Source: a virus. From it: a stretch of DNA of 64,000 nucleotides. The notes beneath the pieces are model-generated. The model made no database searches. It worked only from the letters and a program-made list of their open reading frames with translations, and had not been told where the DNA came from. Below are positions 1,210 to 33,817 of this stretch, in pieces; position 1 is the first letter of the stretch, and every line of letters starts with the position of its first letter. The stretch is taken from the IMG/VR virus record IMGVR_UViG_3300037069_002364, positions 5,500 through 69,499 of that record. One strand, 5' to 3'. A program made the translations under genes and the position numbers.

Positions 1210-2052
1210 TCAATACACGGCCTTGCCTTGTGCCGGAATATCCGGGCTGAGTGGACGCTTCGGCTTCTCCGGGTCTTTGTTCATCGGGGGCGCTTCCCAC
1301 ATGTGCGCCGCGATGTACTTCGCCATCCCCGGCACGAAGCGCCCACCGTCCCGCATCCACTCCGAGGACTCCTTGTGTGCGTTCAGGGCGCGGAGCGTCG
1401 TTACCATGTCGGGGAGGTCGCCACTGCGAAAGGCTGCTGCCCACTCGCGCTTCGCCTCGTTGATATTCGTACGCCGTGCTGCCGGGTACGCCCGCTGGAA
1501 CGCCTCGAAGTCACGCACCACCGCTTTGGGGATCGCCGCGCTCTGTGTCTGCGTCTGGTCTGTCTCTGTGTCTGGTCTGTTCTGTATCTGGTCGGTTTCA
1601 GAAACGTTACTGAAACGTTTCATCGCCGTTTCGGAAACAATGGTCGGTAACGTTTCCGAAACAATGGGCCGTGGTGTTTCGGTAACAGTGAGGGGTGCTG
1701 TTTCGGAAACGTCCTCCACCGTTTCACCCCGCTTGGCGGCACGGTGTTTCTGCACCCGATTGGTGGAGGTCTGGTACTGGTGGGCGTCCCACTCGTGGGG
1801 GGAGAGTACGCCGTCCTCGTCGTCAAGGAGGCCACAGGCGGTGAGGGCGGTGAGGGAGGCGGTCACAGCGGACACGTCCTCGCGCAGTGTCCAGGCAAGG
1901 TCAGCAGCGGGGGGCAGGACGCCCCCCGGCTGATTCTCCATCGAGGCGATGCAGAGCAGGTTCACCCAGAACTTGAAAAGGTCGCCACTGAGCGCCTGCA
2001 CCTTGCGGTTATTGATTGTGGCGTTATGAAAGCGGAACCAAGTCATCGCCAT
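1210..2052 (-). CDS. Phage replication initiator protein
   Basis: N-terminal WFRFHNATINNRKVQALSGDLFKFWVNLLCIAS initiator-type domain, central VSET repeats (iterons), C-terminal FEAFQRAYP...GRFVPGMAKYIAAHMWE domain. Confidence 0.85.
   Translation of the reverse strand: MAMTWFRFHNATINNRKVQALSGDLFKFWVNLLCIASMENQPGGVLPPAADLAWTLREDVSAVTASLTALTACGLLDDEDGVLSPHEWDAHQYQTSTNRVQKHRAAKRGETVEDVSETAPLTVTETPRPIVSETLPTIVSETAMKRFSNVSETDQIQNRPDTETDQTQTQSAAIPKAVVRDFEAFQRAYPAARRTNINEAKREWAAAFRSGDLPDMVTTLRALNAHKESSEWMRDGGRFVPGMAKYIAAHMWEAPPMNKDPEKPKRPLSPDIPAQGKAVY
1545..1730. repeat. Iteron array / probable replication origin inside the initiator gene
   Basis: Repeated GTTTC(G/A)GAAAC, GAAACGTT(T/A)C and GTAAC units next to a strand-biased TCTG(T/G) tract. 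Confidence 0.75.
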
Positions 2053-2065
2053 GCCTCACCCCCGG

Positions 2066-2971
2066 CTAAAATGGTACGGCTTCGTCGTTGATGTGGACGC
2101 CGCCGTTCATGCCCGTGATCACTGCCGCCGCCTCATCGGGCACGTCACACTGCGAAATGAAATGGATGGCGTAATTGAGAATGTCCTTCGGCAGCGTGCC
2201 GGGGCCGTACTGCGGCTTCTCCGGGTTGACGGGGCCGGTGGGAATGATCTTCTCCTGCGTGTTGAAGGTCTGCGCGACCCACCCCTCCAACTCGCGCACG
2301 CACTGACCGACGTTGCCGCCCGTGAAGCCGTTGGCGGTCAGGTACTCGTTGACTTCCGCCATGCGCGTGCTGTTCCCGTTCGGGGCATGCTCCCCGTAGG
2401 GACTGGCCTGTGGGGGCGCGGTGCGTATCGGTGTCGGCGCTGCCTGTGGTGGACGCGGGCCGTTCGGGGCGTGACTGTCGGGGCGGGCCGCGCCAGTGGC
2501 GGGGGCGGGCGCGCTCGGTGCGGGCCGTGGGGTGGGGGCGGATGCAGCAGGCGGGACGTAATCGGGATACACGTCCTCATCGAACTCCGCATCGACCAGT
2601 TGATCCCAAATATATAGGGCGACTCCGAAGCGCATCGCGCACCGCTTGAGCGCGTCACTGTAGGCGTTCTTGATCTCGTTGGTAAAGCCGTCCTGACGCT
2701 GCGGGCCACCCGATTCGACACGGGAGACGCCACCAATCGTCATCTCCAGCGTCACGCCCGCACAGTGGATGACACCCTGCCCATCGAGGTAGGTGTGGGT
2801 GGCGACATTGCGTACCGACCAGTCGGGCGCGAGTTTGTTCAGGCGCTCCGTGACGATTGCGTGCGAGATGTAGGACATCGCGGGCGCGTTGCCGCGTCCC
2901 GGCTTCTTCTTGACCACTTCATCGGGGAACTTGGACGCCAGTTGCGCCAGTGTCGTTGCGTAGTCGGTCAT
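2066..2971 (-). CDS. Rad52/Rad22-family single-strand annealing protein with Pro/Ala-rich linker
   Basis: MSYISHAIVTERLNKLAPDWS...EIKNAYSDALKRCAMRFGVALYIW is the Rad52/Sak signature. Confidence 0.85.
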   Translation of the reverse strand: MTDYATTLAQLASKFPDEVVKKKPGRGNAPAMSYISHAIVTERLNKLAPDWSVRNVATHTYLDGQGVIHCAGVTLEMTIGGVSRVESGGPQRQDGFTNEIKNAYSDALKRCAMRFGVALYIWDQLVDAEFDEDVYPDYVPPAASAPTPRPAPSAPAPATGAARPDSHAPNGPRPPQAAPTPIRTAPPQASPYGEHAPNGNSTRMAEVNEYLTANGFTGGNVGQCVRELEGWVAQTFNTQEKIIPTGPVNPEKPQYGPGTLPKDILNYAIHFISQCDVPDEAAAVITGMNGGVHINDEAVPF

Positions 2972-3946: not shown

Positions 3947-4213
3947 TCAGTCGGCAACGGCGGACATCACCTCCCTTCCACATGATTGATGATAGGCGGC
4001 GATCCGGTCGCGCGCCCGGGCTTGGAGCCAGGTGTGTAGATCATCGGGACACTGGTAATACGCGGCCAGTCGTTCGAGGAGGCGGAAGGTCGGCAGCATG
4101 ACGCCCCGTTCCGCTTTGGAGATACTGGAGTGGGGAATGTGTGATTCCCGTTCGACCTGATAGATCGAGCGAGAGGCGCGTGCCTCCCGCAGCAGTGCAC
4201 CAATCTCGGTCAC
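3947..4213 (-). CDS. Cro-like XRE HTH regulator
   Basis: IGALLREARASRSIYQVERESHIPHSSISKAERGVMLPTFRLLERLAAYY; divergent from the repressor. Confidence 0.85.
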   Translation of the reverse strand: MTEIGALLREARASRSIYQVERESHIPHSSISKAERGVMLPTFRLLERLAAYYQCPDDLHTWLQARARDRIAAYHQSCGREVMSAVAD

Positions 4214-5199: not shown

Positions 5200-5410
5200 C
5201 ACGCTTGGTCGTCTCGGTGTCCAGTTCGTCAAACGCATGTTCTAATCCCACGTCCCCATTTCCCTTCGTGCGAGAAAGCCACCGCAGGCTCTCACCCCAT
5301 CTCGCGTACTCTCGGATACACCACGCAGTATATATGGCGGAACAATTCTTGGCAATACCTTTATTATACAATCGGTGGGATTGTCGCAGGACAGGAGGCG
5401 CAGCAAGGCG

Positions 5411-6556
5411 ATGGGGACGATCAAGCGACATGAGGGGAAGCGGGGTGTCGTCTGGCGGGTACGGGAGGAGTTGCCGCGTGACCCGCTGACCGGAGCGCGC
5501 AAGTGGCAATGGGTGACGGGGCCGACGAAGCGGGCGGTGCAGGAGGAAGTGACGGCGATCCGCCACCGGATTGCCACCGGCACGCAGATCACGGCCAACC
5601 GCCTGACGCTCGGTGACTACCTCATCCAGTGGTTGCGCGCCAACCATGCAGATGTGCGTGGCTCGACATGGGAGCGCAACGAGCGCGATGTGCGCCTCCA
5701 CCTCATCCCGACGCTCGGCGCGCTGAAACTGGCCGATGTCACTCCCCTCCACATTCAGGCGCTCTACGACCGACTGAACACCCGGCTGGCCCCGGCCTCG
5801 GTGCGCCGCGTCCATGCCGTCCTCGCGGCCTCGCTCGATCAGGCGGTGGCGTGGCAGTTGATGCTCCGCAACCCGGCGAAGGGAGTCGTGCTGCCGCGTG
5901 ACGCCCACCGCGAGATGCAGGTCTGGGACGAGCGGGAGGTGGCGACCTTCCTCACGGCGACGCACGCCCATCCCTATGCCGCGCTCTGGCGGCTGGCAGT
6001 GCTCGTTGGCCTGCGCCGTGGCGAACTGCTCGCCCTCCAGTGGGACGATCTCGACACCGCACGCGCCACACTGACGGTGCGCCGCACGCTGACCGTGGAT
6101 GATCAGCGCCGCCTGATCGTCGGCACGCCCAAGACCCGCAAGGGGAGCCGCACGCTCACCCTGCCCGCGTCCTGCGTCACCGCGCTGCACGCCCACCGTC
6201 GCCAGCAGAATAGTGAGCGATTACGCATCGGCAGCGCATGGCAGGACAAGAACCTCGTCTTCCCGGCCAGTGACGGCGACCTCCTCTGGCCCTCGTATCC
6301 GGGCCACTGGCTCGACACCATCGCCAAGCACGCCAAACTCCCGCGTCTGCGCTTCCATGACCTGCGCCACACCGCCGCCACCCTCGCGCTCCTCCAGGGC
6401 ATCTCGCCCCGCGTCGTGCAGGAGCGGCTTGGTCACGCCTCGCTGGAGATGACGCTCGGACTCTACTCGCATGTCACCCTGACGATGCAGACGGATGCTG
6501 CGGCGAAGATGGACGCGATGTTCGCCGATCTACCGGCGCGTTTGACCTCCATGTGA
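5411..6556 (+). CDS. int: Tyrosine recombinase (phage integrase)
   Basis: GLRRGELLAL, KT, RFHDLRHTAAT, RLGH, YSH catalytic motifs; N-terminal arm-binding region. AGGAGG upstream of ATG 5411. Confidence 0.97.
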   Translation: MGTIKRHEGKRGVVWRVREELPRDPLTGARKWQWVTGPTKRAVQEEVTAIRHRIATGTQITANRLTLGDYLIQWLRANHADVRGSTWERNERDVRLHLIPTLGALKLADVTPLHIQALYDRLNTRLAPASVRRVHAVLAASLDQAVAWQLMLRNPAKGVVLPRDAHREMQVWDEREVATFLTATHAHPYAALWRLAVLVGLRRGELLALQWDDLDTARATLTVRRTLTVDDQRRLIVGTPKTRKGSRTLTLPASCVTALHAHRRQQNSERLRIGSAWQDKNLVFPASDGDLLWPSYPGHWLDTIAKHAKLPRLRFHDLRHTAATLALLQGISPRVVQERLGHASLEMTLGLYSHVTLTMQTDAAAKMDAMFADLPARLTSM

Positions 6557-14077: not shown

Positions 14078-15493
14078 TTAGCCGAGATATTCCAGGTACT
14101 TGATCTCGCTCATCGCCTCGGGCGTGACGGTGCCGTTGATGCCCATCAGGAAGGCGTCACCGTCAATCGCAATCGGCGTCGCAGCGACCAGCGCGCCGTT
14201 GTGCTTGGCGACTTTCGCGTAGCGCACCTCGGCACCCTGCTTCATCGCCCGCTGAAAGAACTTCTCAATCGTCGGTGGCGTGTAGCCGAAGCGCAGTTTC
14301 GTCGCCTTCGGTGGGCGCGACGGCTTGCTGGTGGCGGCGATTGCCGCTTTCGTTGCCTTCGCCACCATCTCGGCACGGGCGTCATGCTGCAACTGCTCTT
14401 GCTGCTGGATGGGATACTCATGAGGTGATGACGGCGAGAACGTCACGGGAATGTCACTGAAATGTCCGCCTGTAACCGCGCACGTCGCTTCTGCCTCGCA
14501 GAATGCAGGCGCATCACAATCGTTACACGGGATGCCGGGCGGTGGGCCAATGCGCTCAGTGCTCCATGTCTGCCCGTCGAGTGCGATGGAGTGACGCGCT
14601 TCCTTTGCCGCCGCCATCCCTGCGAGGGTGTACGCATCGAAGGCCACGGCCTCGTTATACCCCTCGACATCGCCCTCCCGAGCCGCGTGGTTCATCAGGA
14701 AGTCGGCGGTGAGTTCGTCTGCGCCATCATCCGTATCTTCCTCCGCGTTGCAGTCGCCGCACGAGGGATTGCCTTCGCCATCAAGGTGGGTCGCCGTATC
14801 GTCGCAATGCACACAGCGCGTTGCTCCTTTCGCCATGTACGCGTTGTACAGTGTGCGCATCTCCTCGACATTCGCCACCACGACTTTGCCGCGCTTGATG
14901 TCCTTGATCCAGTAGCCGTTACCGTTCCCCTCGCTGTCGTCGGTGGCCCATGCGGTCAGGGCGTCCTCAAGCGTGTCGAAATGCTCGGAGCCGGTGCCGC
15001 GTTCACCGTTGCGCATCCGGTAATACTCGAAGTCCTCGGGCAGCGCGGCAAGCCGTTCCTCTTCCTCCTTCTCAAGCGCGCCCCTCTCTTGCTCGCGCAC
15101 TTCCTCGTATATCTTACTGTCGAACACGCCGGGAAGCACGGGATAGTCGGCGGCATGCATGCAGCGGATCGTGGCGCGACTGCTGCCAAAGGTGATCGTC
15201 AGGCTCTCGCGCCGCCAGTCCCGTTCCAATGCCACCGGCACGCCCTTCGGCACCAGTTTCAGGTAATCGGCAAACTCCTTCGCGGGTACGCAGGTCGCGC
15301 CGTACGCGTCAATACCGCTACCGACGAAGCGGTGCGCCGTCTGTTCGAGGTTCGTTCCGGCGATGAGGAAGCCGCCCGCTTTCGCTTCGAGGACAAAGGT
15401 ATTGAGGATCGGCAGATGGGTTCGCTTGGCGATGCTCGGCTTGACCACCGCCAGCGCGTCGTTCAGGTCGTTGCTCATTGCGGTCAGTTTCAT
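14078..15493 (-). CDS. Beta sliding clamp domain I fused to ~350 aa unknown extension (Cys-rich and acidic segments)
   Basis: MKLTAMSNDLNDALAVVKPSIAKRTHLPILNTFVLEA...IAGTNLE...GATCVPAKEFADYLKLVP...LTITFGSSRATIRCMHAADYPVLP matches DnaN domain I; AAGGAGG RBS before ATG 15493. Confidence 0.8.
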   Translation of the reverse strand: MKLTAMSNDLNDALAVVKPSIAKRTHLPILNTFVLEAKAGGFLIAGTNLEQTAHRFVGSGIDAYGATCVPAKEFADYLKLVPKGVPVALERDWRRESLTITFGSSRATIRCMHAADYPVLPGVFDSKIYEEVREQERGALEKEEEERLAALPEDFEYYRMRNGERGTGSEHFDTLEDALTAWATDDSEGNGNGYWIKDIKRGKVVVANVEEMRTLYNAYMAKGATRCVHCDDTATHLDGEGNPSCGDCNAEEDTDDGADELTADFLMNHAAREGDVEGYNEAVAFDAYTLAGMAAAKEARHSIALDGQTWSTERIGPPPGIPCNDCDAPAFCEAEATCAVTGGHFSDIPVTFSPSSPHEYPIQQQEQLQHDARAEMVAKATKAAIAATSKPSRPPKATKLRFGYTPPTIEKFFQRAMKQGAEVRYAKVAKHNGALVAATPIAIDGDAFLMGINGTVTPEAMSEIKYLEYLG

Positions 15494-15503
15494 GGGTTCC
15501 TCC

Positions 15504-16340
15504 TTATGCGGCGAGATGCATCGGCATGATAACGGCGGCGACATCGCAGCCATCCTCAGTCTGCGGGAGAAAGACGCCGGGATTGTTGCGCCCCTGCATG
15601 CGGAAGATCACGTCGCGGGCCTTGTAACTGTTCAGGAGGTCGTGGACATAGCGCCAGTTGAAGGCAATCACGTTGCCATCGCCATCAAAGATACCCTCGT
15701 TGATCGTTTCCACGGCGTCACCGATCTCGGCGGCGTTCGCGCTCACGGTCAGGAAGCGTTCGTACTCGCCCTGGTCGGAGTTGATTTCCAGTTTCAGCAC
15801 GTCGTTGTTCTCTTTGGCGAAGATCGCGCACCGCTTGACGGCGGCAAGCAAGGCTTCACGGCGCACGCCAATCTCGGTAACGTGCTTCGTGGGAATGAGT
15901 TTCGCGCAGTCGGGGTACGTGCCTTCGATCAGGTGGCTCGTCAGCGAGAGATGGGCACTTTCCGCGCTGATCTGGATGGGCTTGGCGACGGTCGGCATTC
16001 CTTGCGACTCGACCGCTTCCACGTCGGGGTTGAGGTCGCGCCAGCGTTTCGTCGTCAGCGTGATTGGCTCGTCATACTTGCCGATCTGCTTGATCAGCGA
16101 CTTGACGAACTCGATGGGTACAATGGCACTATCCCACTCCTCATACTCAATGGTCGCATTCGCTACGGACAGGCGGAAGCCATCGGTCGCCTCGGCAAAG
16201 AGGCGTGCGCCATCCTGTCCCGAAACCGCCCGCAGATGGACAGCGTGCAGCACGGGCCGGGAATCGTCGGTCGCCGCCGCATAGACGGTGTGGGTGAGCA
16301 GGGATTTCAAAACTTGTGAATTGACCGTCAATTGGCTCAT
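15504..16340 (-). CDS. dnaN: Beta sliding clamp domains II+III only
   Basis: YAAATDDSRPVLHAVHL...ATDGFRL...LIEGTYPDCAKLIP...LLAAVKR...IAFNWRYVHDLL...VIMPMHL; domain I absent. Confidence 0.9.
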   Translation of the reverse strand: MSQLTVNSQVLKSLLTHTVYAAATDDSRPVLHAVHLRAVSGQDGARLFAEATDGFRLSVANATIEYEEWDSAIVPIEFVKSLIKQIGKYDEPITLTTKRWRDLNPDVEAVESQGMPTVAKPIQISAESAHLSLTSHLIEGTYPDCAKLIPTKHVTEIGVRREALLAAVKRCAIFAKENNDVLKLEINSDQGEYERFLTVSANAAEIGDAVETINEGIFDGDGNVIAFNWRYVHDLLNSYKARDVIFRMQGRNNPGVFLPQTEDGCDVAAVIMPMHLAA

Positions 16341-24775: not shown

Positions 24776-25047
24776 GGCGTGATCTCCTCTCGATGGATCA
24801 TCGTCTGCGCCACCGCTCGATAGCGCCGCCTGGTGAGATAGGCGCGAAAGGCCGCGAAGATCGTCATGGGGTCGCCTCCACTGCTTCGATGACTTCGACA
24901 ATCTCTCCGCTGCGATAGGTCGCCAGGAGCGCGCGCTCGATGTCCATGACTCGTTCCTCCCGTTCGTGCGTCCATCGCACCATGCTGCCGACAACGGCTC
25001 GTCATCGGCAGACAGGTGAGAGCGGCGCTCAGGCGTAGCCCATCGCG

Positions 25048-25170
25048 TTAGATAATGCCGCGCTTCCTGGCGATCTCGCGTGCCTGCGCCGCGCTACTGG
25101 CGTAGATGTAGACAAAGCGCCATTTGCCGTGGGGGATGACGTAGATCGCCATCCCTGTATCGCTTTTCAT
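25048..25170 (-). CDS. Hypothetical protein, 40 aa
   Basis: MKSDTGMAIYVIPHGKWRFVYIYASSAAQAREIARKRGII. Confidence 0.45.
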   Translation of the reverse strand: MKSDTGMAIYVIPHGKWRFVYIYASSAAQAREIARKRGII

Positions 25171-25180
25171 GGCTCGTTTC

Positions 25181-25492
25181 TCATTTCTTGAACCGATGGA
25201 CGATGCTCGATACGCGCCGCTTGATCGCGGAGCCAACATGCCGCGCGCCGCTCGATAGACGGTGCACATGGCTCGTTACATGGGGCAGTGAAACGTGCCG
25301 CACGCTCGATACATGCCGCACGCTCGATGTGTGCACGCTCGATGTACGCACGCTCGCTCGATGGGTCGTGGTCGTTGAGCGGTGCGTGGTCGTCGTGCGG
25401 TGCGTGGTCGTGACATGCGTAGCAGCGTCCACGGTCGGTGCGCCGAGGATCAGGGAGAGCGCGAGCGCCGCGCCTGCGATCTGCTTCTTCAT
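25181..25492 (-). CDS. Predicted exported His/Thr/Ser/Arg/Val-rich low-complexity protein
   Basis: Signal peptide MKKQIAGAALALSLILGAPTVDA, then TTTHR/SSVRHV repeats. Confidence 0.65.
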   Translation of the reverse strand: MKKQIAGAALALSLILGAPTVDAATHVTTTHRTTTTHRSTTTTHRASVRTSSVHTSSVRHVSSVRHVSLPHVTSHVHRLSSGARHVGSAIKRRVSSIVHRFKK

Positions 25493-25824
25493 GCCAGTAA
25501 CCACAACAGCCATTGCGCCGCGCGCCGTTCTGCCGCGATCTCCTCATGGTGCTCCCATGTCCGGGGATGCGTGTCCATGAGCCGGGTTTGGTAGTGTGAC
25601 GCATAGAGCGCCAGCGCCCCGCGTGCAAACGCCGGTTCCACCATGCCGAGCGCGGTCGTCGCGCCCTCCAGTACCGTCAGGTAGCCGCGTGCGCCCGTGA
25701 TCGCGAAGCCGTTCCGCTCCGCCAGTGCGCCCCGGAGTTCCTGTTCCTTCATCTCCCGTTTCACGCTGATCGCGTCTCTGAGTGTCGTCGGGATCACGAT
25801 GTGGGTTTCTGCCTGTGCGCTCAT
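25489..25824 (-). CDS. Hypothetical protein
   Basis: ORF track; coupled. Confidence 0.6.
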   Translation of the reverse strand: MSAQAETHIVIPTTLRDAISVKREMKEQELRGALAERNGFAITGARGYLTVLEGATTALGMVEPAFARGALALYASHYQTRLMDTHPRTWEHHEEIAAERRAAQWLLWLLA

Positions 25825-26066
25825 GCCTGGTTTCCCTTCGCACCTTGCAATTTCGCGATCTGGCGCTCAATCGCGGCCAGCCGTTGCTGCTCTTCCCGTG
25901 TCTCTTGCTGGTACGTGTACAGGAGGCCAACACCAATCGCGTCTGAGGCGTATCCCTCGTGCGCCTGCGCGTATTTGAGGTTTCGGGCGATCGCCGCTGA
26001 TTCCTGTTTCAACCGGCGAATATCCGTGATGCCCTGAATGTCGCGTGCGTCCCACATCACCTGCAT
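25821..26066 (-). CDS. Hypothetical coiled-coil protein
   Basis: AAAGGAG RBS; box at 26100-26115 upstream. Confidence 0.6.
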   Translation of the reverse strand: MQVMWDARDIQGITDIRRLKQESAAIARNLKYAQAHEGYASDAIGVGLLYTYQQETREEQQRLAAIERQIAKLQGAKGNQA

Positions 26067-26147
26067 CGCCCTGCTCCTTTCATCCTACGCCATCCATCTG
26101 TACTTACACAAGTACATGGCGTGGCGCTCTCTCGCGTGTGTGTGCGC

Positions 26148-26345
26148 GTCTGGTCTGGTCTGTGTCTGTTCTGTGTCTGTTCTGTATCTGTATCTGTTCT
26201 GGTGCGTTTCAGAAACGTTTCACCCGATTGTTCCCGAAACGTTTCAGTAACGTTCCATGAAACGGCATGAAACGTTACATCGTGTTACCGTAACGTTTCT
26301 GAAACGTTTCATCATCGTTTCAGAAACACGCATGAAACGGGCATG
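26148..26345. repeat. Non-coding second iteron-like block homologous to the rep-gene origin
   Basis: Exact shared strings with 1576-1624: TCTGTTCTGTATCTG, GTTTCAGAAACGTT, CTGAAACGTTTCATC. Confidence 0.8.
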
Positions 26346-26451
26346 GAAAAACGGGCATGAAAAATCAACCTCGGCCACCTGGGGCGCACGCCGAAACGCC
26401 GGTGCCACGCGCACGCGGGCGCACGGGGGAACCGGCGGGCACACGAAAGCA

Positions 26452-26483
26452 CCAGAGGGCCACCCTTACGGGCAGCCCTCTGG
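26452..26483 (-). terminator. Hairpin / possible terminator after the 26503 gene
   Basis: CCAGAGGGC...GCCCTCTGG stem with an inner CCC-GTAA-GGG hairpin; weak U tract. Confidence 0.45.
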
Positions 26484-26502
26484 CTTAGGATTGTACTAGG
26501 GG

Positions 26503-27234
26503 TTAGTTGGTCGCGATCTCCCGCATTTTGGCAACGATGCCAGCGGGCGTTGTGCCAGCGTCTAACGCGGCATGGTTGACCAATTCAATCAAACTACCCA
26601 GAGACGATTCGGAATCGTCCATCGGCTTGGCTTGGATGACGCCATCATTGACGCGTCCTTCGGTGGGCGTAGATGCCGCGCGGATCACGGTCGCGTCCGG
26701 CTTGCCGCTCATCATTGCCGCTCCCGCAATGGCAACGCTATCGGCAGCTGCCTTGCGTGCGGCGGCATGTGCTTCGAAGCGCGTACGGTGTTCTGATTCC
26801 GTGATTCCCCATGCCTTGACCAGAGAGAGGTACTCTGCATACCGCGCATTAGCACGCGCCACCACGCCAAGTCCCGTCAACAGGATGGGCACACGCCGTC
26901 CGTCTACCATTGCGCTTACGGACAGATTGCCCTTGTTGTCTGGCGCGCAAAACCGGAACGGGCCTGCCAGTAGGAATGGGGCATGCGTATCGGGTGATTG
27001 CGATGCATACCAACCGAACACCTCAGGCACTTCCCCTTGTGCCTGTTCGTCCACAATCTTCTGAAAGAATGCCAGCATGCCAACGCGGTTCTTACACACC
27101 AGCATCTCATCTTGCGGTCGCGTAGTTTCGGGCAGTTTGCCCGTTTTCGCGATGCGTGCCATCTGTGCGGCTACCGCGGGATCGTACCCCGCAACGCGGT
27201 TCTTGAGCGTGCTAACGGAAAATGTGTTACCCAT
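26503..27234 (-). CDS. Hypothetical protein with atypical codon usage
   Basis: Start trimmed to MGNTFSVSTLKN; more A/T-ending codons than neighbours. Confidence 0.65.
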   Translation of the reverse strand: MGNTFSVSTLKNRVAGYDPAVAAQMARIAKTGKLPETTRPQDEMLVCKNRVGMLAFFQKIVDEQAQGEVPEVFGWYASQSPDTHAPFLLAGPFRFCAPDNKGNLSVSAMVDGRRVPILLTGLGVVARANARYAEYLSLVKAWGITESEHRTRFEAHAAARKAAADSVAIAGAAMMSGKPDATVIRAASTPTEGRVNDGVIQAKPMDDSESSLGSLIELVNHAALDAGTTPAGIVAKMREIATN

Positions 27235-27236
27235 GG

Positions 27237-27488
27237 CTAATCCCAACCTTTCACGCGCCGAATGCGTTCTAGAATACTGCCACCTGCCACATTGACAGGT
27301 GATGCTAACCCGCCGTACACGTCGTCTACTGTCCACCTGTCCAACTGTGATGTGTACCCCTGCGTCCGTACCGCGTTGACTTGACGGATCACTGCATGTT
27401 GTACATCGTGCCGCTGTGTTGCGAAGCGGCTGTCCGAAGCGACTCCCGCCAATACTTGTCGCCGCAATGCACGCCCCGTACGGTTCAT
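27237..27488 (-). CDS. Hypothetical protein
   Basis: MNRTGRALRRQ..., GAGGGG RBS, ends just before the 27234 start. Confidence 0.45.
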   Translation of the reverse strand: MNRTGRALRRQVLAGVASDSRFATQRHDVQHAVIRQVNAVRTQGYTSQLDRWTVDDVYGGLASPVNVAGGSILERIRRVKGWD

Positions 27489-27772
27489 ACACGCCCCTCT
27501 CTGTTCAGGCATAGCGGTACTGAATACCTGCCATGCCCTGCCTGTTCACCGTGCCGCCGATCTCTGACGACAACCACAGCATGCGCCAGCCGCAGCAAGG
27601 TCGAAACGCCCAAAGGTACAGACTGCGTGGGAAGCACCGGCACCTGGCGGTTTTGGCAGTGGTGGCAAGGCTGCGGGGGGTGGCAATCTTGGGCGCGGGT
27701 CGGGAAAGCGAGTCCCCTCGCCCAGAAAACAAATCTCCACAGCGTATGACCGAGTACGACAATCCGGCCCAC
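27485..27772 (-). CDS. Possible hypothetical protein
   Basis: Stop overlaps the next ATG (ATGA), but no clear RBS; start uncertain. Confidence 0.25.
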   Translation of the reverse strand: MGRIVVLGHTLWRFVFWARGLAFPTRAQDCHPPQPCHHCQNRQVPVLPTQSVPLGVSTLLRLAHAVVVVRDRRHGEQAGHGRYSVPLCLNREGRV

Positions 27773-27845
27773 AGGGGAATGAGCGAGAAAGACGCAATAC
27801 GGCGCGGGCCTCAGTACAATATTACTTAGAGAACTGGGTACGAGA

Positions 27846-27874
27846 AAGATAGCAAAAGTGCCGTTCTTTTACAA
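27846..27874 (-). promoter_or_regulatory. sigma70-type promoter heading the long leftward arm, overlapped by operator
   Basis: TTGTAA-N17-TATCTT with TGn extension; box at 27863-27878 covers the -35. Confidence 0.6.
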
Positions 27875-27986
27875 GTACGTCAAGTGGGGACAACTCCTAT
27901 GGCTGTGATAGACAAAACCTATCATCGCATGGGGATGCGGTAAAATGGAGGCATATTCAATGAAGATCAATTTCGATCAGTGAAAA

Positions 27987-28556
27987 TCAGCGGTTATTGA
28001 GGCCGAGGAGGGTATTGAAGGCACGATCATCAGCGAGTGCCTGCACCTCACTGCGGCGGATCACCCAGATGTCCTCAAAAGAGAGGCGGTGCAACCGCTT
28101 GTGGCGCTGACGGCACATATGCTCGATGCGTGTCCGACTGAGCGAGAGCATCTTCGCCGCCTCGGTGATCGTCACAAATCCCTCGTTGTGGGCACGCTCG
28201 ACCGTCTGGCGATACCCGGCACTGACGCCCCGCTTCTGAGTCATCGCGGCAAAGCGATCCACCTCACTACGGCGCACGCGCCAGTTCCGGTGACTGGGCG
28301 GCGTTTCCGGGGGATGGAAGGGGATGGCGACGAGCCTGCCCGAGCGGATCGCGTGGCGGATCGCATTCTCCGTCACGCCCCGGTAGGCAGCGGCCTCGGC
28401 CACCGTCCACAAGGGATCGGTGAGCGACGCCTCCTTGATCGCTTCCTGATCGGCCAGCCACCGCTCTTCTGCCCGCCGAATCGCCTCCACCACCGCCATA
28501 CGCGTATTCTGCACCGTTCGCTCCATTCTTGACACCCACACCATATCACTCAGCAT
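27987..28556 (-). CDS. Regulator with two excisionase-type (HTH_17) domains
   Basis: LWTVAEAAAYRGVTENAIRHAIRSGRL and FVTITEAAKMLSLSRTRIEHMCRQ. Confidence 0.8.
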   Translation of the reverse strand: MLSDMVWVSRMERTVQNTRMAVVEAIRRAEERWLADQEAIKEASLTDPLWTVAEAAAYRGVTENAIRHAIRSGRLVAIPFHPPETPPSHRNWRVRRSEVDRFAAMTQKRGVSAGYRQTVERAHNEGFVTITEAAKMLSLSRTRIEHMCRQRHKRLHRLSFEDIWVIRRSEVQALADDRAFNTLLGLNNR

Positions 28557-33632: not shown

Positions 33633-33642
33633 CCCACCATCC

Positions 33643-33797
33643 GCAGACAGAGGCGAAAGCATCGACGCGACCCGACAAGGGACAGTTAGCGGGTGTGAGT
33701 CCCGCCTGCCTGCACTCTCCCTCGACTCCCCGCGCTGGACTCGTCCCAGGCAATACCGCGCCCCAATAGCAGCCGTAAGGCGAACGCGGGGGGCCGA
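33643..33797 (+). ncRNA. Candidate structured RNA: tRNA-like element plus multi-stem domain upstream of portal
   Basis: Acceptor-like GCAGACAG/CTGCCTGC, T-arm-like GCGGG-TGTGAGT-CCCGC, then a 13-bp stem (33722-33734/33785-33797) enclosing CTGG/CCAG and GCC-GTAA-GGC hairpins. Confidence 0.4.
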
Positions 33798-33817
33798 CTT
33801 CACACAAAGGACATGCG

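What the first reader, a model, noticed from the sequence alone, without database searches (positions are those of the whole stretch)
26148..26345. Second, non-coding copy of the replication-origin iteron block 24.6 kb from the initiator gene
Seen: three exact 14-15-mers are shared with the rep gene (1576-1590/26176-26190, 1595-1608/26206-26219, 1610-1624/26299-26313), with the same order of TCTG tract then GAAACGTTTC-type iterons. There is no intact Rep reading frame here, and the block lies just upstream of an operator box and the 26066 gene. Established: lambdoid initiators bind iterons within their own gene, and P1 incA is an extra iteron set that titrates or handcuffs RepA. Inference: this is a secondary origin, a copy-control sink, or a Rep-dependent switch coupling replication to early-arm transcription.
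Basis: partly seen in the sequence, partly recalled or inferred. Interest (0 to 1): 0.7.

Follow-up and report, generated by a model that had tools for sequence, protein, structure and literature searches.

The report
Second, non-coding phage replication origin copy
This 71-kb soil phage carries a complete second copy of its replication-origin DNA module in a gene-free gap 24.6 kb from the copy inside its initiator gene. Bacillus phage SPP1 has the same two-origin layout, but here it is built on an unrelated and very widespread initiator family.

Summary
The 11-bp palindrome GTTTCNGAAAC occurs 11 times in the window, against about 1 expected. All hits lie in two blocks: six in the rep gene (1595-1710) and five in a non-coding gap (26206-26327). 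In both blocks a T-free (CAGANN)n tract follows on the minus strand, and this tract also occurs nowhere else.

The genome is a complete 71,463-bp circle with exactly these two blocks. Rep belongs to PHROG 9474 and has a winged-helix N-domain. Its disordered linker is encoded by the origin module, using codons that are rare in this genome.

In 65 distinct relatives (33-70% GC) the same module sits in the rep linker and is read in all three frames, so the DNA itself is conserved. A model built from 43 other phages scores block 2 higher than the in-gene copy. No rep-like coding sequence flanks block 2.

None of 40 relatives' whole records has a second cluster. The closest relative found has a non-coding core in its terminase-portal gap instead.

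My best reading is an SPP1 oriL/oriR-type second Rep-binding origin, acting as an auxiliary origin or a fork barrier. Binding and function are inferred. SPP1 G38P is not homologous. This scan has reported SPP1-like second origins before, on other DNA. I class it as a new member of a known kind.

The parts
26148..26201 (-). Block 2: T-free (CAGANN)n tract, read as TCTG repeats on the plus strand
   Evidence: Tandem repeat finder reports a period of 5-6/11 with about 9.8 copies. The pattern CAGANNCAGANNCAGA occurs only here and in the rep gene. The tract aligns with the tracts of 4 other phages.
26206..26362 (.). Block 2: iteron cluster. Five GTTTCNGAAAC palindromes at 26206, 26230, 26241, 26295 and 26317, with interleaved GAAACGTTTC sites, about 17 G(A/T)AAC half-sites, CATGAAACG repeats and A5 tracts. 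GC is 37-53%, against 70-80% in the flanks.
26451..26484 (-). Rho-independent terminator-like hairpin (15 pairs) closing the upstream gene. It forms the upstream boundary of the gap that holds block 2.
26100..26115 (.). Exact 16-bp operator palindrome GTACTTACACAAGTAC, one of 14 copies in the window. It lies between the tract and the gene that starts at 26066.
25821..26066 (-). First gene downstream of block 2 (81 aa, no known family). An AAAGGAG ribosome-binding site precedes it.
26503..27492 (-). Upstream ORF with low GC3 and no family match. It is moron-like and its real start is probably the internal ATG at 27234.
1210..2052 (-). rep gene, 280 aa: winged-helix N-domain (residues 10-107), disordered linker (114-172) and helical C-domain
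   Evidence: PHROG 9474 'replication initiation protein', E 1.8e-15 over the full length. Pfam PF09681 scores 17.6 bits, below its 23.3-bit cut-off. AlphaFold2 model. Foldseek top hits are all winged-helix regulators.
1595..1710 (.). In-gene iterons: six GTTTCNGAAAC sites at start-to-start spacings of 11, 22, 24, 24 and 24 bp, encoding repeated VSET in the linker
1540..1592 (-). In-gene (CAGANN)n tract encoding DQIQNRPDTETDQTQTQS
2066..2971 (-). Rad52/22-type single-strand annealing protein, immediately upstream of rep in the same operon
   Evidence: Pfam PF04098, E 5.2e-8

Best explanation
Block 26148-26370 is a second, complete, non-coding copy of this phage's replication-origin module. The module is a cluster of 11-bp palindromic sites GTTTCNGAAAC, with extra GAAAC half-sites. 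On the same strand it is followed by a short spacer and a T-free (CAGANN)n tract. In this initiator family the module is normally written into the codons of the disordered linker of the rep gene, and this phage has that copy too (1540-1710). Both copies point the same way on a 71.46-kb circle. I infer that the winged-helix N-domain of Rep binds both. By analogy with SPP1 oriL/oriR, the in-gene copy would fire theta replication. It lies in the same operon as the phage primase-helicase, with the Rad52-type annealing protein encoded next to it. The intergenic copy would then serve either as an auxiliary origin or as a tightly Rep-bound fork barrier that triggers the switch to recombination-dependent concatemer synthesis. 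What is shown: the anatomy, motif exclusivity, DNA-level conservation across the family, and the absence of pseudogene flanks. What is inferred: Rep binding and everything that follows from it.
For: The motif and the tract are confined to the two blocks, on the same strand and in the same order. The genome is a closed circle with only these two clusters. Rep is a replication initiator with a confident winged-helix domain, and the module encodes its disordered linker. In the linker, GTT makes up 5 of 8 Val codons and GAA 6 of 8 Glu codons. Elsewhere in rep these are 0 of 10 and 1 of 11, and in 16 other genes of the window they are 6.5% and 31%. Among 65 distinct family loci with 33-70% GC, the iterons are read in all three phases (54/31/29). 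In 47 of them a CAGA tract (3 or more repeats) follows on the coding strand. Another phage's in-gene core is 94% identical over 52 nt to block 2, while the Rep proteins are about 24-45% identical. A core HMM built from 43 other phages puts block 2 first in this genome (14.6 bits) and the in-gene copy second (9.3 bits). No N- or C-domain remnant flanks block 2. The block exactly fills a gap between a terminator and a promoter/operator and is AT-enriched. Non-coding cores recur in other lineages: L165, the closest relative, has one in its TerL-portal gap, and L046/L160 and L072/L135 have one upstream of the terminase genes. For the SPP1 precedent, gp38 binds oriL inside gene 38 and the intergenic oriR, and oriR is proposed to act as a fork barrier (PMC6316719; PMC3485210).
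Against: No binding or replication data exist. None of 40 relatives' whole records, 19 of them at least 90% complete, has a second cluster, so a second copy is not needed by the family. Non-coding copies are missing from close terminase relatives of the phages that carry them, and the window lacks one at the site where L165 has it. This patchy pattern also fits neutral gain and loss. There is no strongly AT-rich unwinding stretch like the ones in L046 and L072. Cumulative GC skew shows no inflection at either block. The HMM scores are modest (E 0.003 and 0.18).
Confidence: 0.6

Rival explanations
1. Block 2 is a neutral relic: an origin-only fragment of a rep gene, left by mosaic recombination or by a replaced replication module, with no present function.
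For: Extra copies are sporadic. None occurs in 40 relatives' records. They are present or absent between close terminase relatives. An HNH gene lies next to rep in several relatives, and an HNH gene lies 2.2 kb upstream of block 2. The neighbouring ORF has an atypical composition.
Against: No trace of the N- or C-domain coding sequence remains, yet five near-perfect 11-bp palindromes and an intact tract survive. Similarity to the in-gene copy is limited to about 75 bp at 82% plus the motifs, so this is not a recent duplication. Block 2 matches the family consensus better than the working in-gene copy does. Its boundaries coincide with the functional module and with transcription signals.
Confidence: 0.2
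2. Block 2 is a copy-control or handcuffing site, as with P1 incA or plasmid iteron arrays. It would titrate Rep or pair with the in-gene origin to limit initiation.
For: The iterons are the same, lie at a distance and are in direct orientation. The principle is established for iteron plasmids and P1 (own knowledge).
Against: The phage carries a tyrosine integrase and a cI/cro-like switch, so it is not evidently a plasmid prophage. The block holds the whole origin core including the tract, not iterons alone. Family members generally lack such a site.
Confidence: 0.08
3. Block 2 is a Rep-dependent transcription switch. Rep bound upstream of the operator-bearing promoter of the operon starting at 26066 would couple early-arm transcription to replication.
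For: The tract ends about 30 bp from the operator palindrome and about 80 bp from the start codon at 26066.
Against: The other non-coding copies (L165, L046, L072) sit in different contexts, before portal or terminase genes. Nothing in the sequence shows activation or repression. This reading does not exclude the best explanation.
Confidence: 0.08
4. The palindromes are sites for a host factor rather than for Rep. TGAAACGTTTCA resembles Cra/FruR-type LacI-family operators.
For: A full-text search found GAAACGTTTC in a paper on E. coli Cra. The resemblance to the Cra operator itself is from my own knowledge.
Against: The motif follows the Rep family across phages with 33-70% GC, and so across very different hosts. 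It always sits in the rep linker with the tract beside it.
Confidence: 0.03

Closest known systems
Bacillus phage SPP1 oriL / oriR with origin-binding protein gp38 (G38P)
   Same: One origin copy lies inside the initiator's own gene. A second copy with the same repeats lies in an intergenic segment bracketed by transcription signals, next to genes of unknown function (PMC6316719). An annealing recombinase is encoded beside the replication genes. The proposed role of the second copy is a Rep-bound fork barrier that triggers the theta-to-sigma switch (PMC3485210).
   Different: The initiator is not detectably related: hhalign probability is 0.1, and G38P matches Pfam Phg_2220_C rather than PF09681. 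The repeats here are 11-bp palindromes followed by a T-free CAGANN tract, not direct repeats with an AT-rich unwinding element. The second copy lies at the head of the early arm, not among head genes. The helicase is a primase-helicase fusion, not a DnaB type with a separate loader. This phage is temperate.
Lambda O protein and ori-lambda (iterons inside the O gene)
   Same: The iterons lie in the part of the initiator gene that encodes the linker between an N-terminal DNA-binding domain and a C-terminal domain (own knowledge). This matches the in-gene copy here.
   Different: Lambda has a single origin. Homology to O was not tested.
Satellite phage P4 ori and crr (cis replication region), bound by the alpha primase-helicase
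   Same: Two separated clusters of the same initiator-binding repeats lie on one replicon (own knowledge; no usable paper was found).
   Different: In P4 both regions are required in cis, and the initiator is itself the primase-helicase. Here Rep is a separate organiser-type protein, and most relatives manage with a single block.
P1 incA and plasmid control iterons
   Same: An extra set of initiator-binding repeats lies away from the firing origin (own knowledge).
   Different: Control arrays are iterons only and belong to plasmid-type maintenance. Block 2 carries the full origin core, and the phage encodes an integrase.

Membership tests
SPP1-type two-origin phage replicon (design) | Initiator-binding repeats inside the initiator's own gene | tested here: met
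   Six GTTTCNGAAAC sites at 1595-1710 inside rep
SPP1-type two-origin phage replicon (design) | Second array of the same repeats in non-coding DNA elsewhere in the genome | tested here: met
   Five sites plus the tract at 26148-26362, with stops in all frames and no rep flanks
SPP1-type two-origin phage replicon (design) | AT-rich DNA unwinding element beside the repeats | tested here: inconclusive
   Both blocks are 37-53% GC in a 62% GC genome, but there is no long AT-rich stretch. The CAGANN tract may play this role.
SPP1-type two-origin phage replicon (design) | The initiator binds both copies | not testable with these tools
   Needs EMSA, footprinting or ChIP
SPP1 G38P protein family | Sequence homology of the initiator to G38P | tested here: not met
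   hhalign of the family alignment against G38P gives probability 0.1. G38P matches Phg_2220_C, and the window's Rep does not.
Phage replisome organiser, Pfam PF09681 (Phage_rep_org_N) | Score above Pfam's gathering cut-off | tested here: not met
   17.6 bits against a 23.3-bit cut-off. Five of 10 family members match at E up to 0.01, the best at 1.1e-4.
PHROG 9474 replication initiation protein | Full-length profile match | tested here: met
   E 1.8e-15, residues 3-270 on profile positions 1-263 of 288
Winged-helix origin-binding initiators | Winged helix-turn-helix fold in the DNA-binding domain | tested here: inconclusive
   In the AlphaFold2 model, residues 10-107 have pLDDT about 90, with helix-helix-hairpin topology. 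The Foldseek top hits are all winged-helix regulators, but weak (E 0.065 or higher, probability about 0.9).
Decaying rep pseudogene | Residual similarity to the Rep N- or C-domain in the flanks of the block | tested here: not met
   tblastn with 75 family proteins at E up to 10 on 25000-28000 gives its best hits (E 2.7e-4 to about 0.01) all inside 26040-26373. Outside this range only chance-level scatter appears (E 0.011 or higher, about 35-aa pieces).
P1 incA-type control iterons | Iterons only, on a plasmid-maintained replicon | tested here: not met
   Block 2 contains the complete family core including the tract. The phage has an integrase. Partition genes were not specifically searched for.

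The most novel reading that the evidence does not exclude
The iteron plus (CAGANN)n module may be a portable origin cassette of a very large, uncharacterised initiator family. It would work equally well inside codons (in any frame) and in non-coding DNA. In this phage the intergenic copy, which is closer to the consensus, would be the origin that fires, or would fire in a different life-cycle phase from the in-gene copy. The T-free hexamer tract would be a new kind of unwinding or helicase-loading element. Extra copies placed near early-arm starts or packaging and head genes would set where concatemer synthesis begins.
Probability: 0.2. Interest if true: 0.7.

Novelty: new member of a known kind. 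Interest (0 to 1): 0.5.

Why it matters
Two-origin phages are few, and the role of the second origin is unsettled even in SPP1. This phage gives an independent example built on an unrelated initiator.

The initiator family is very large: 13,881 cluster representatives match at E up to 1e-3. Its origin can now be recognised directly from sequence as GTTTCNGAAAC sites followed by a CAGANN tract in the rep linker.

That makes origins predictable in thousands of uncultured phages and prophages. It also gives a clear case of DNA-level function overlaid on a disordered protein linker. Finally, it provides natural contrasts: relatives with no extra copy, or with the extra copy at different sites, which can be used to test what a second origin is for.

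Tried and rejected
- **Phage-collection DNA search.** blastn of both blocks against the phage collection gave no match.
- **Neighbour genes.** Relatives of the two genes flanking block 2 and of TerL, searched by single sequence in viral contigs, gave none.
- **Metagenome scan.** A scan for the 24-nt core junction found one contig, and that was an in-gene core of another phage.
- **Sequencing runs and read laying.** Only assembled contigs of soil metagenomes were available. They hold the same phage and show no divergent relative and no usable depth profile.
- **GC skew.** It is uniformly negative around the circle, with no inflection at either block.
- **Rfam.** Only a chance-level microRNA hit appeared.
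- **DnaA boxes.** None lies near either block.
- **Solved structures.** A sequence search with the family profile found nothing.
- **Apparent extra exact motif hits.** In two relatives' records, extra hits away from the rep cluster were found. In G031 they are isolated VSET codons inside ordinary genes. In G038 they are single sites that I did not inspect further.
- **Literature on the motif.** Searching for the motif strings found no phage-origin paper. The P4 crr search found nothing usable.
- **A corrected assumption.** I had recalled that SPP1 G38P is a PF09681 member. I tested this and it is wrong.

Full report
**Observation.** Every 12-mer that 26130-26400 shares with the rest of the window maps to 1500-2000. 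The 11-bp palindrome GTTTCNGAAAC, allowing 1 mismatch, occurs 11 times against 1.07 expected. Six hits lie at 1595-1710 and five at 26206-26327. GAAACGTTTC and CAGANNCAGANNCAGA are confined to the same two places. Read on the minus strand, both blocks run iterons, a short spacer, then a T-free (CAGANN)n tract. BLAST similarity between the blocks covers only about 75 bp at 82%; beyond that only the motifs are shared.

**Setting.** The window is part of a 71,590-base IMG/VR record. The ends of that record overlap by 127 nt with one mismatch, so it is a closed 71,463-bp circle. The circle contains exactly these two clusters. The phage comes from soil metagenomes.

It is temperate, with a tyrosine integrase at 5375-6556 and a Cro-like HTH protein at 3947-4213. 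The leftward operon that starts at the Cro-like gene encodes a Rad52-type annealing protein, then Rep, a small ORF and a C5 methyltransferase. Just outside the window it also encodes a Toprim/DnaB-like primase-helicase.

Block 2 fills a 437-bp gap. On one side is a 15-pair terminator hairpin that closes a composition-atypical ORF. On the other is an exact copy of a 16-bp palindrome that recurs 14 times in the window, followed by the gene starting at 26066. Both blocks are 37-53% GC, while the flanks of block 2 are 70-80% GC.

**The initiator.** Rep (1210-2052, minus strand) matches PHROG 9474 'replication initiation protein' over its full length (E 1.8e-15). It matches Pfam PF09681 only below the curated cut-off, and five of ten homologues give weak hits to that family.

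The AlphaFold2 model has a confident N-domain (residues 10-107, pLDDT about 90) with helix-helix-hairpin topology. It also has a disordered linker (114-172) and a low-confidence helical C-domain. Foldseek's best matches are all winged-helix regulators, though weak.

The disordered linker is exactly the part encoded by the iterons and the tract. In the linker, GTT supplies 5 of 8 Val codons and GAA 6 of 8 Glu codons. In the rest of rep these are 0 of 10 and 1 of 11, and in 16 other genes of the window they are 6.5% and 31%. The DNA motif, not the peptide, dictates these codons.

**The family-wide origin.** Protein homologues share the N-domain followed by 'VSETAP..DTETDTETD'. An exact scan of viral contigs for GAAACGTTTCNGAAAC returned 119 loci. 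About 70 of them encode a Rep homologue with the motif inside the gene.

Among 65 distinct loci with 33-70% GC, the iterons are read in all three phases (54/31/29). In 47 loci a CAGA tract follows on the coding strand. The consensus core is GAAACGTTTC(A/T)GAAACG-CMCC-(CAGANN)n.

One 52% GC phage has an in-gene core that is 94% identical over 52 nt to the window's non-coding block. The Rep proteins, by contrast, share about 24-45% identity. Bradyrhizobium phage ppBjS10J-1 keeps the tract but has GTTACGTAAC-type repeats.

A profile search finds 13,881 cluster representatives at E up to 1e-3 and 2,539 at E up to 1e-30. Of the top 147, 132 carry a tract-type linker. I found no paper describing this motif as an origin.

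**Is block 2 a working copy or debris?** A core model built from 43 other phages, with the window excluded, ranks block 2 first in this genome (14.6 bits) and the in-gene core second (9.3 bits). Both hits are on the minus strand. tblastn with 75 family proteins at permissive thresholds gives its best hits only inside the block itself. Outside it there is only chance-level scatter and no remnant of the N- or C-domain. Retention of the functional elements alone, bounded by transcription signals, argues for selection. Without close relatives I cannot measure this.

**Comparative picture.** Whole-record scans of 40 Rep-bearing relatives, 19 of them at least 90% complete, show one cluster each. Stray exact hits were seen in two records. 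Those in G031 are single VSET codons in ordinary genes, and those in G038 are single isolated sites. A second copy is therefore unusual in this family.

Non-coding cores do exist elsewhere. L046/L160 and L072/L135 carry one upstream of their terminase genes, and these have long AT-rich spacers. Close terminase relatives of both lack them.

The closest relative of the window's phage that I could find is contig L165. Its TerL is 82% identical in protein, its TerL and portal regions are about 78% and 76% identical in DNA, and it has the same HNH/HTH_17 layout. It carries a compact non-coding core in the gap between the small gene after TerL and the portal gene. The window's orthologous gap lacks this core. 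L165 ends before its equivalent of block 2 could be seen.

Extra copies therefore recur in this lineage, but at different intergenic sites. That pattern fits a dispensable but useful accessory. It also fits neutral gain and loss.

**Comparison with known systems.** SPP1 has oriL inside gene 38 and oriR in an intergenic segment bracketed by transcription signals. gp38 binds both with nanomolar affinity. oriR-bound gp38 is proposed to stall the fork and trigger recombination-dependent concatemer synthesis (PMC6316719; PMC3485210).

The design here is the same, and an annealing protein sits next to rep. The initiator, however, is not homologous to G38P. The repeat type and the tract differ, and the second copy lies in the early arm. 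Lambda O, P4 ori/crr and P1 incA share single aspects of the design; those comparisons rest on my own knowledge.

This scan has already reported SPP1-like second origins on other DNA. I reached the SPP1 comparison before that look-up.

**Verdict.** The feature is real, non-coding and a full origin module. Its most likely role is a second Rep-binding origin or fork barrier (confidence 0.6). A neutral relic is the main rival (0.2).

I class it as a new member of a known kind. The family-wide, frame-independent origin signature is the most useful by-product of this work.

Noticed in passing
L165:7096-7170 (relative; the orthologous window gap is 33633-33817): The closest relative found (TerL 82% aa identity) has a compact non-coding origin core between the small gene after TerL and the portal gene. 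This is the position SPP1 uses for oriR.
   Followed up: partly
L046:1990-2330, L160:120-220, L072:2050-2270, L135:35-245: Non-coding origin blocks lie just upstream of the terminase genes in two other phage lineages. Each has two iteron sets around an AT-rich spacer, followed by a CAGATA or CAGAA tract. Close TerL relatives lack these blocks.
   Followed up: partly
whole record G000 (window = bases 5500-69499 of it): The record is flagged linear and 82% complete, but its ends overlap by 127 nt with one mismatch. It is therefore a closed circular assembly of 71,463 bp.
   Followed up: yes
window 3243, 4242, 6700, 8248, 12862, 20613, 23327, 24093, 26100, 27863, 29118, 37810, 54890, 60949: The 16-bp palindrome GTACTT-N4-AAGTAC occurs 14 times against 0.26 expected. 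Most copies lie in intergenic DNA ahead of operons, which suggests a genome-wide operator network.
   Followed up: partly
window 14078-16340: The beta sliding clamp is split over two adjacent genes. Domains II and III come first, and domain I follows at the start of a 491-aa protein.
   Followed up: no
L130:3340-3440 (Bradyrhizobium phage ppBjS10J-1, OP596615.1): This cultured phage's Rep-like gene keeps the CCAGATACAGATACAGATA tract but has GTTACGTAAC-type repeats instead of GTTTCNGAAAC. This suggests that iteron specificity varies while the tract stays constant.
   Followed up: no
L046:2330-2380 and L134 (reverse strand, just after the tract): A C-rich motif, CCCCTATAGTCCCC, follows the tract in one non-coding block and one in-gene block. 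L110 has a similar CCCCCTAGACCCCCC. It may be a further element of the origin in some lineages.
   Followed up: no
L162:490-1035 and L162:3556-5331 (genome bases left of the window): The stretch just outside the window encodes an ECF-sigma-like protein and a Toprim plus DnaB-like primase-helicase. The primase-helicase is in the same leftward operon as rep.
   Followed up: partly
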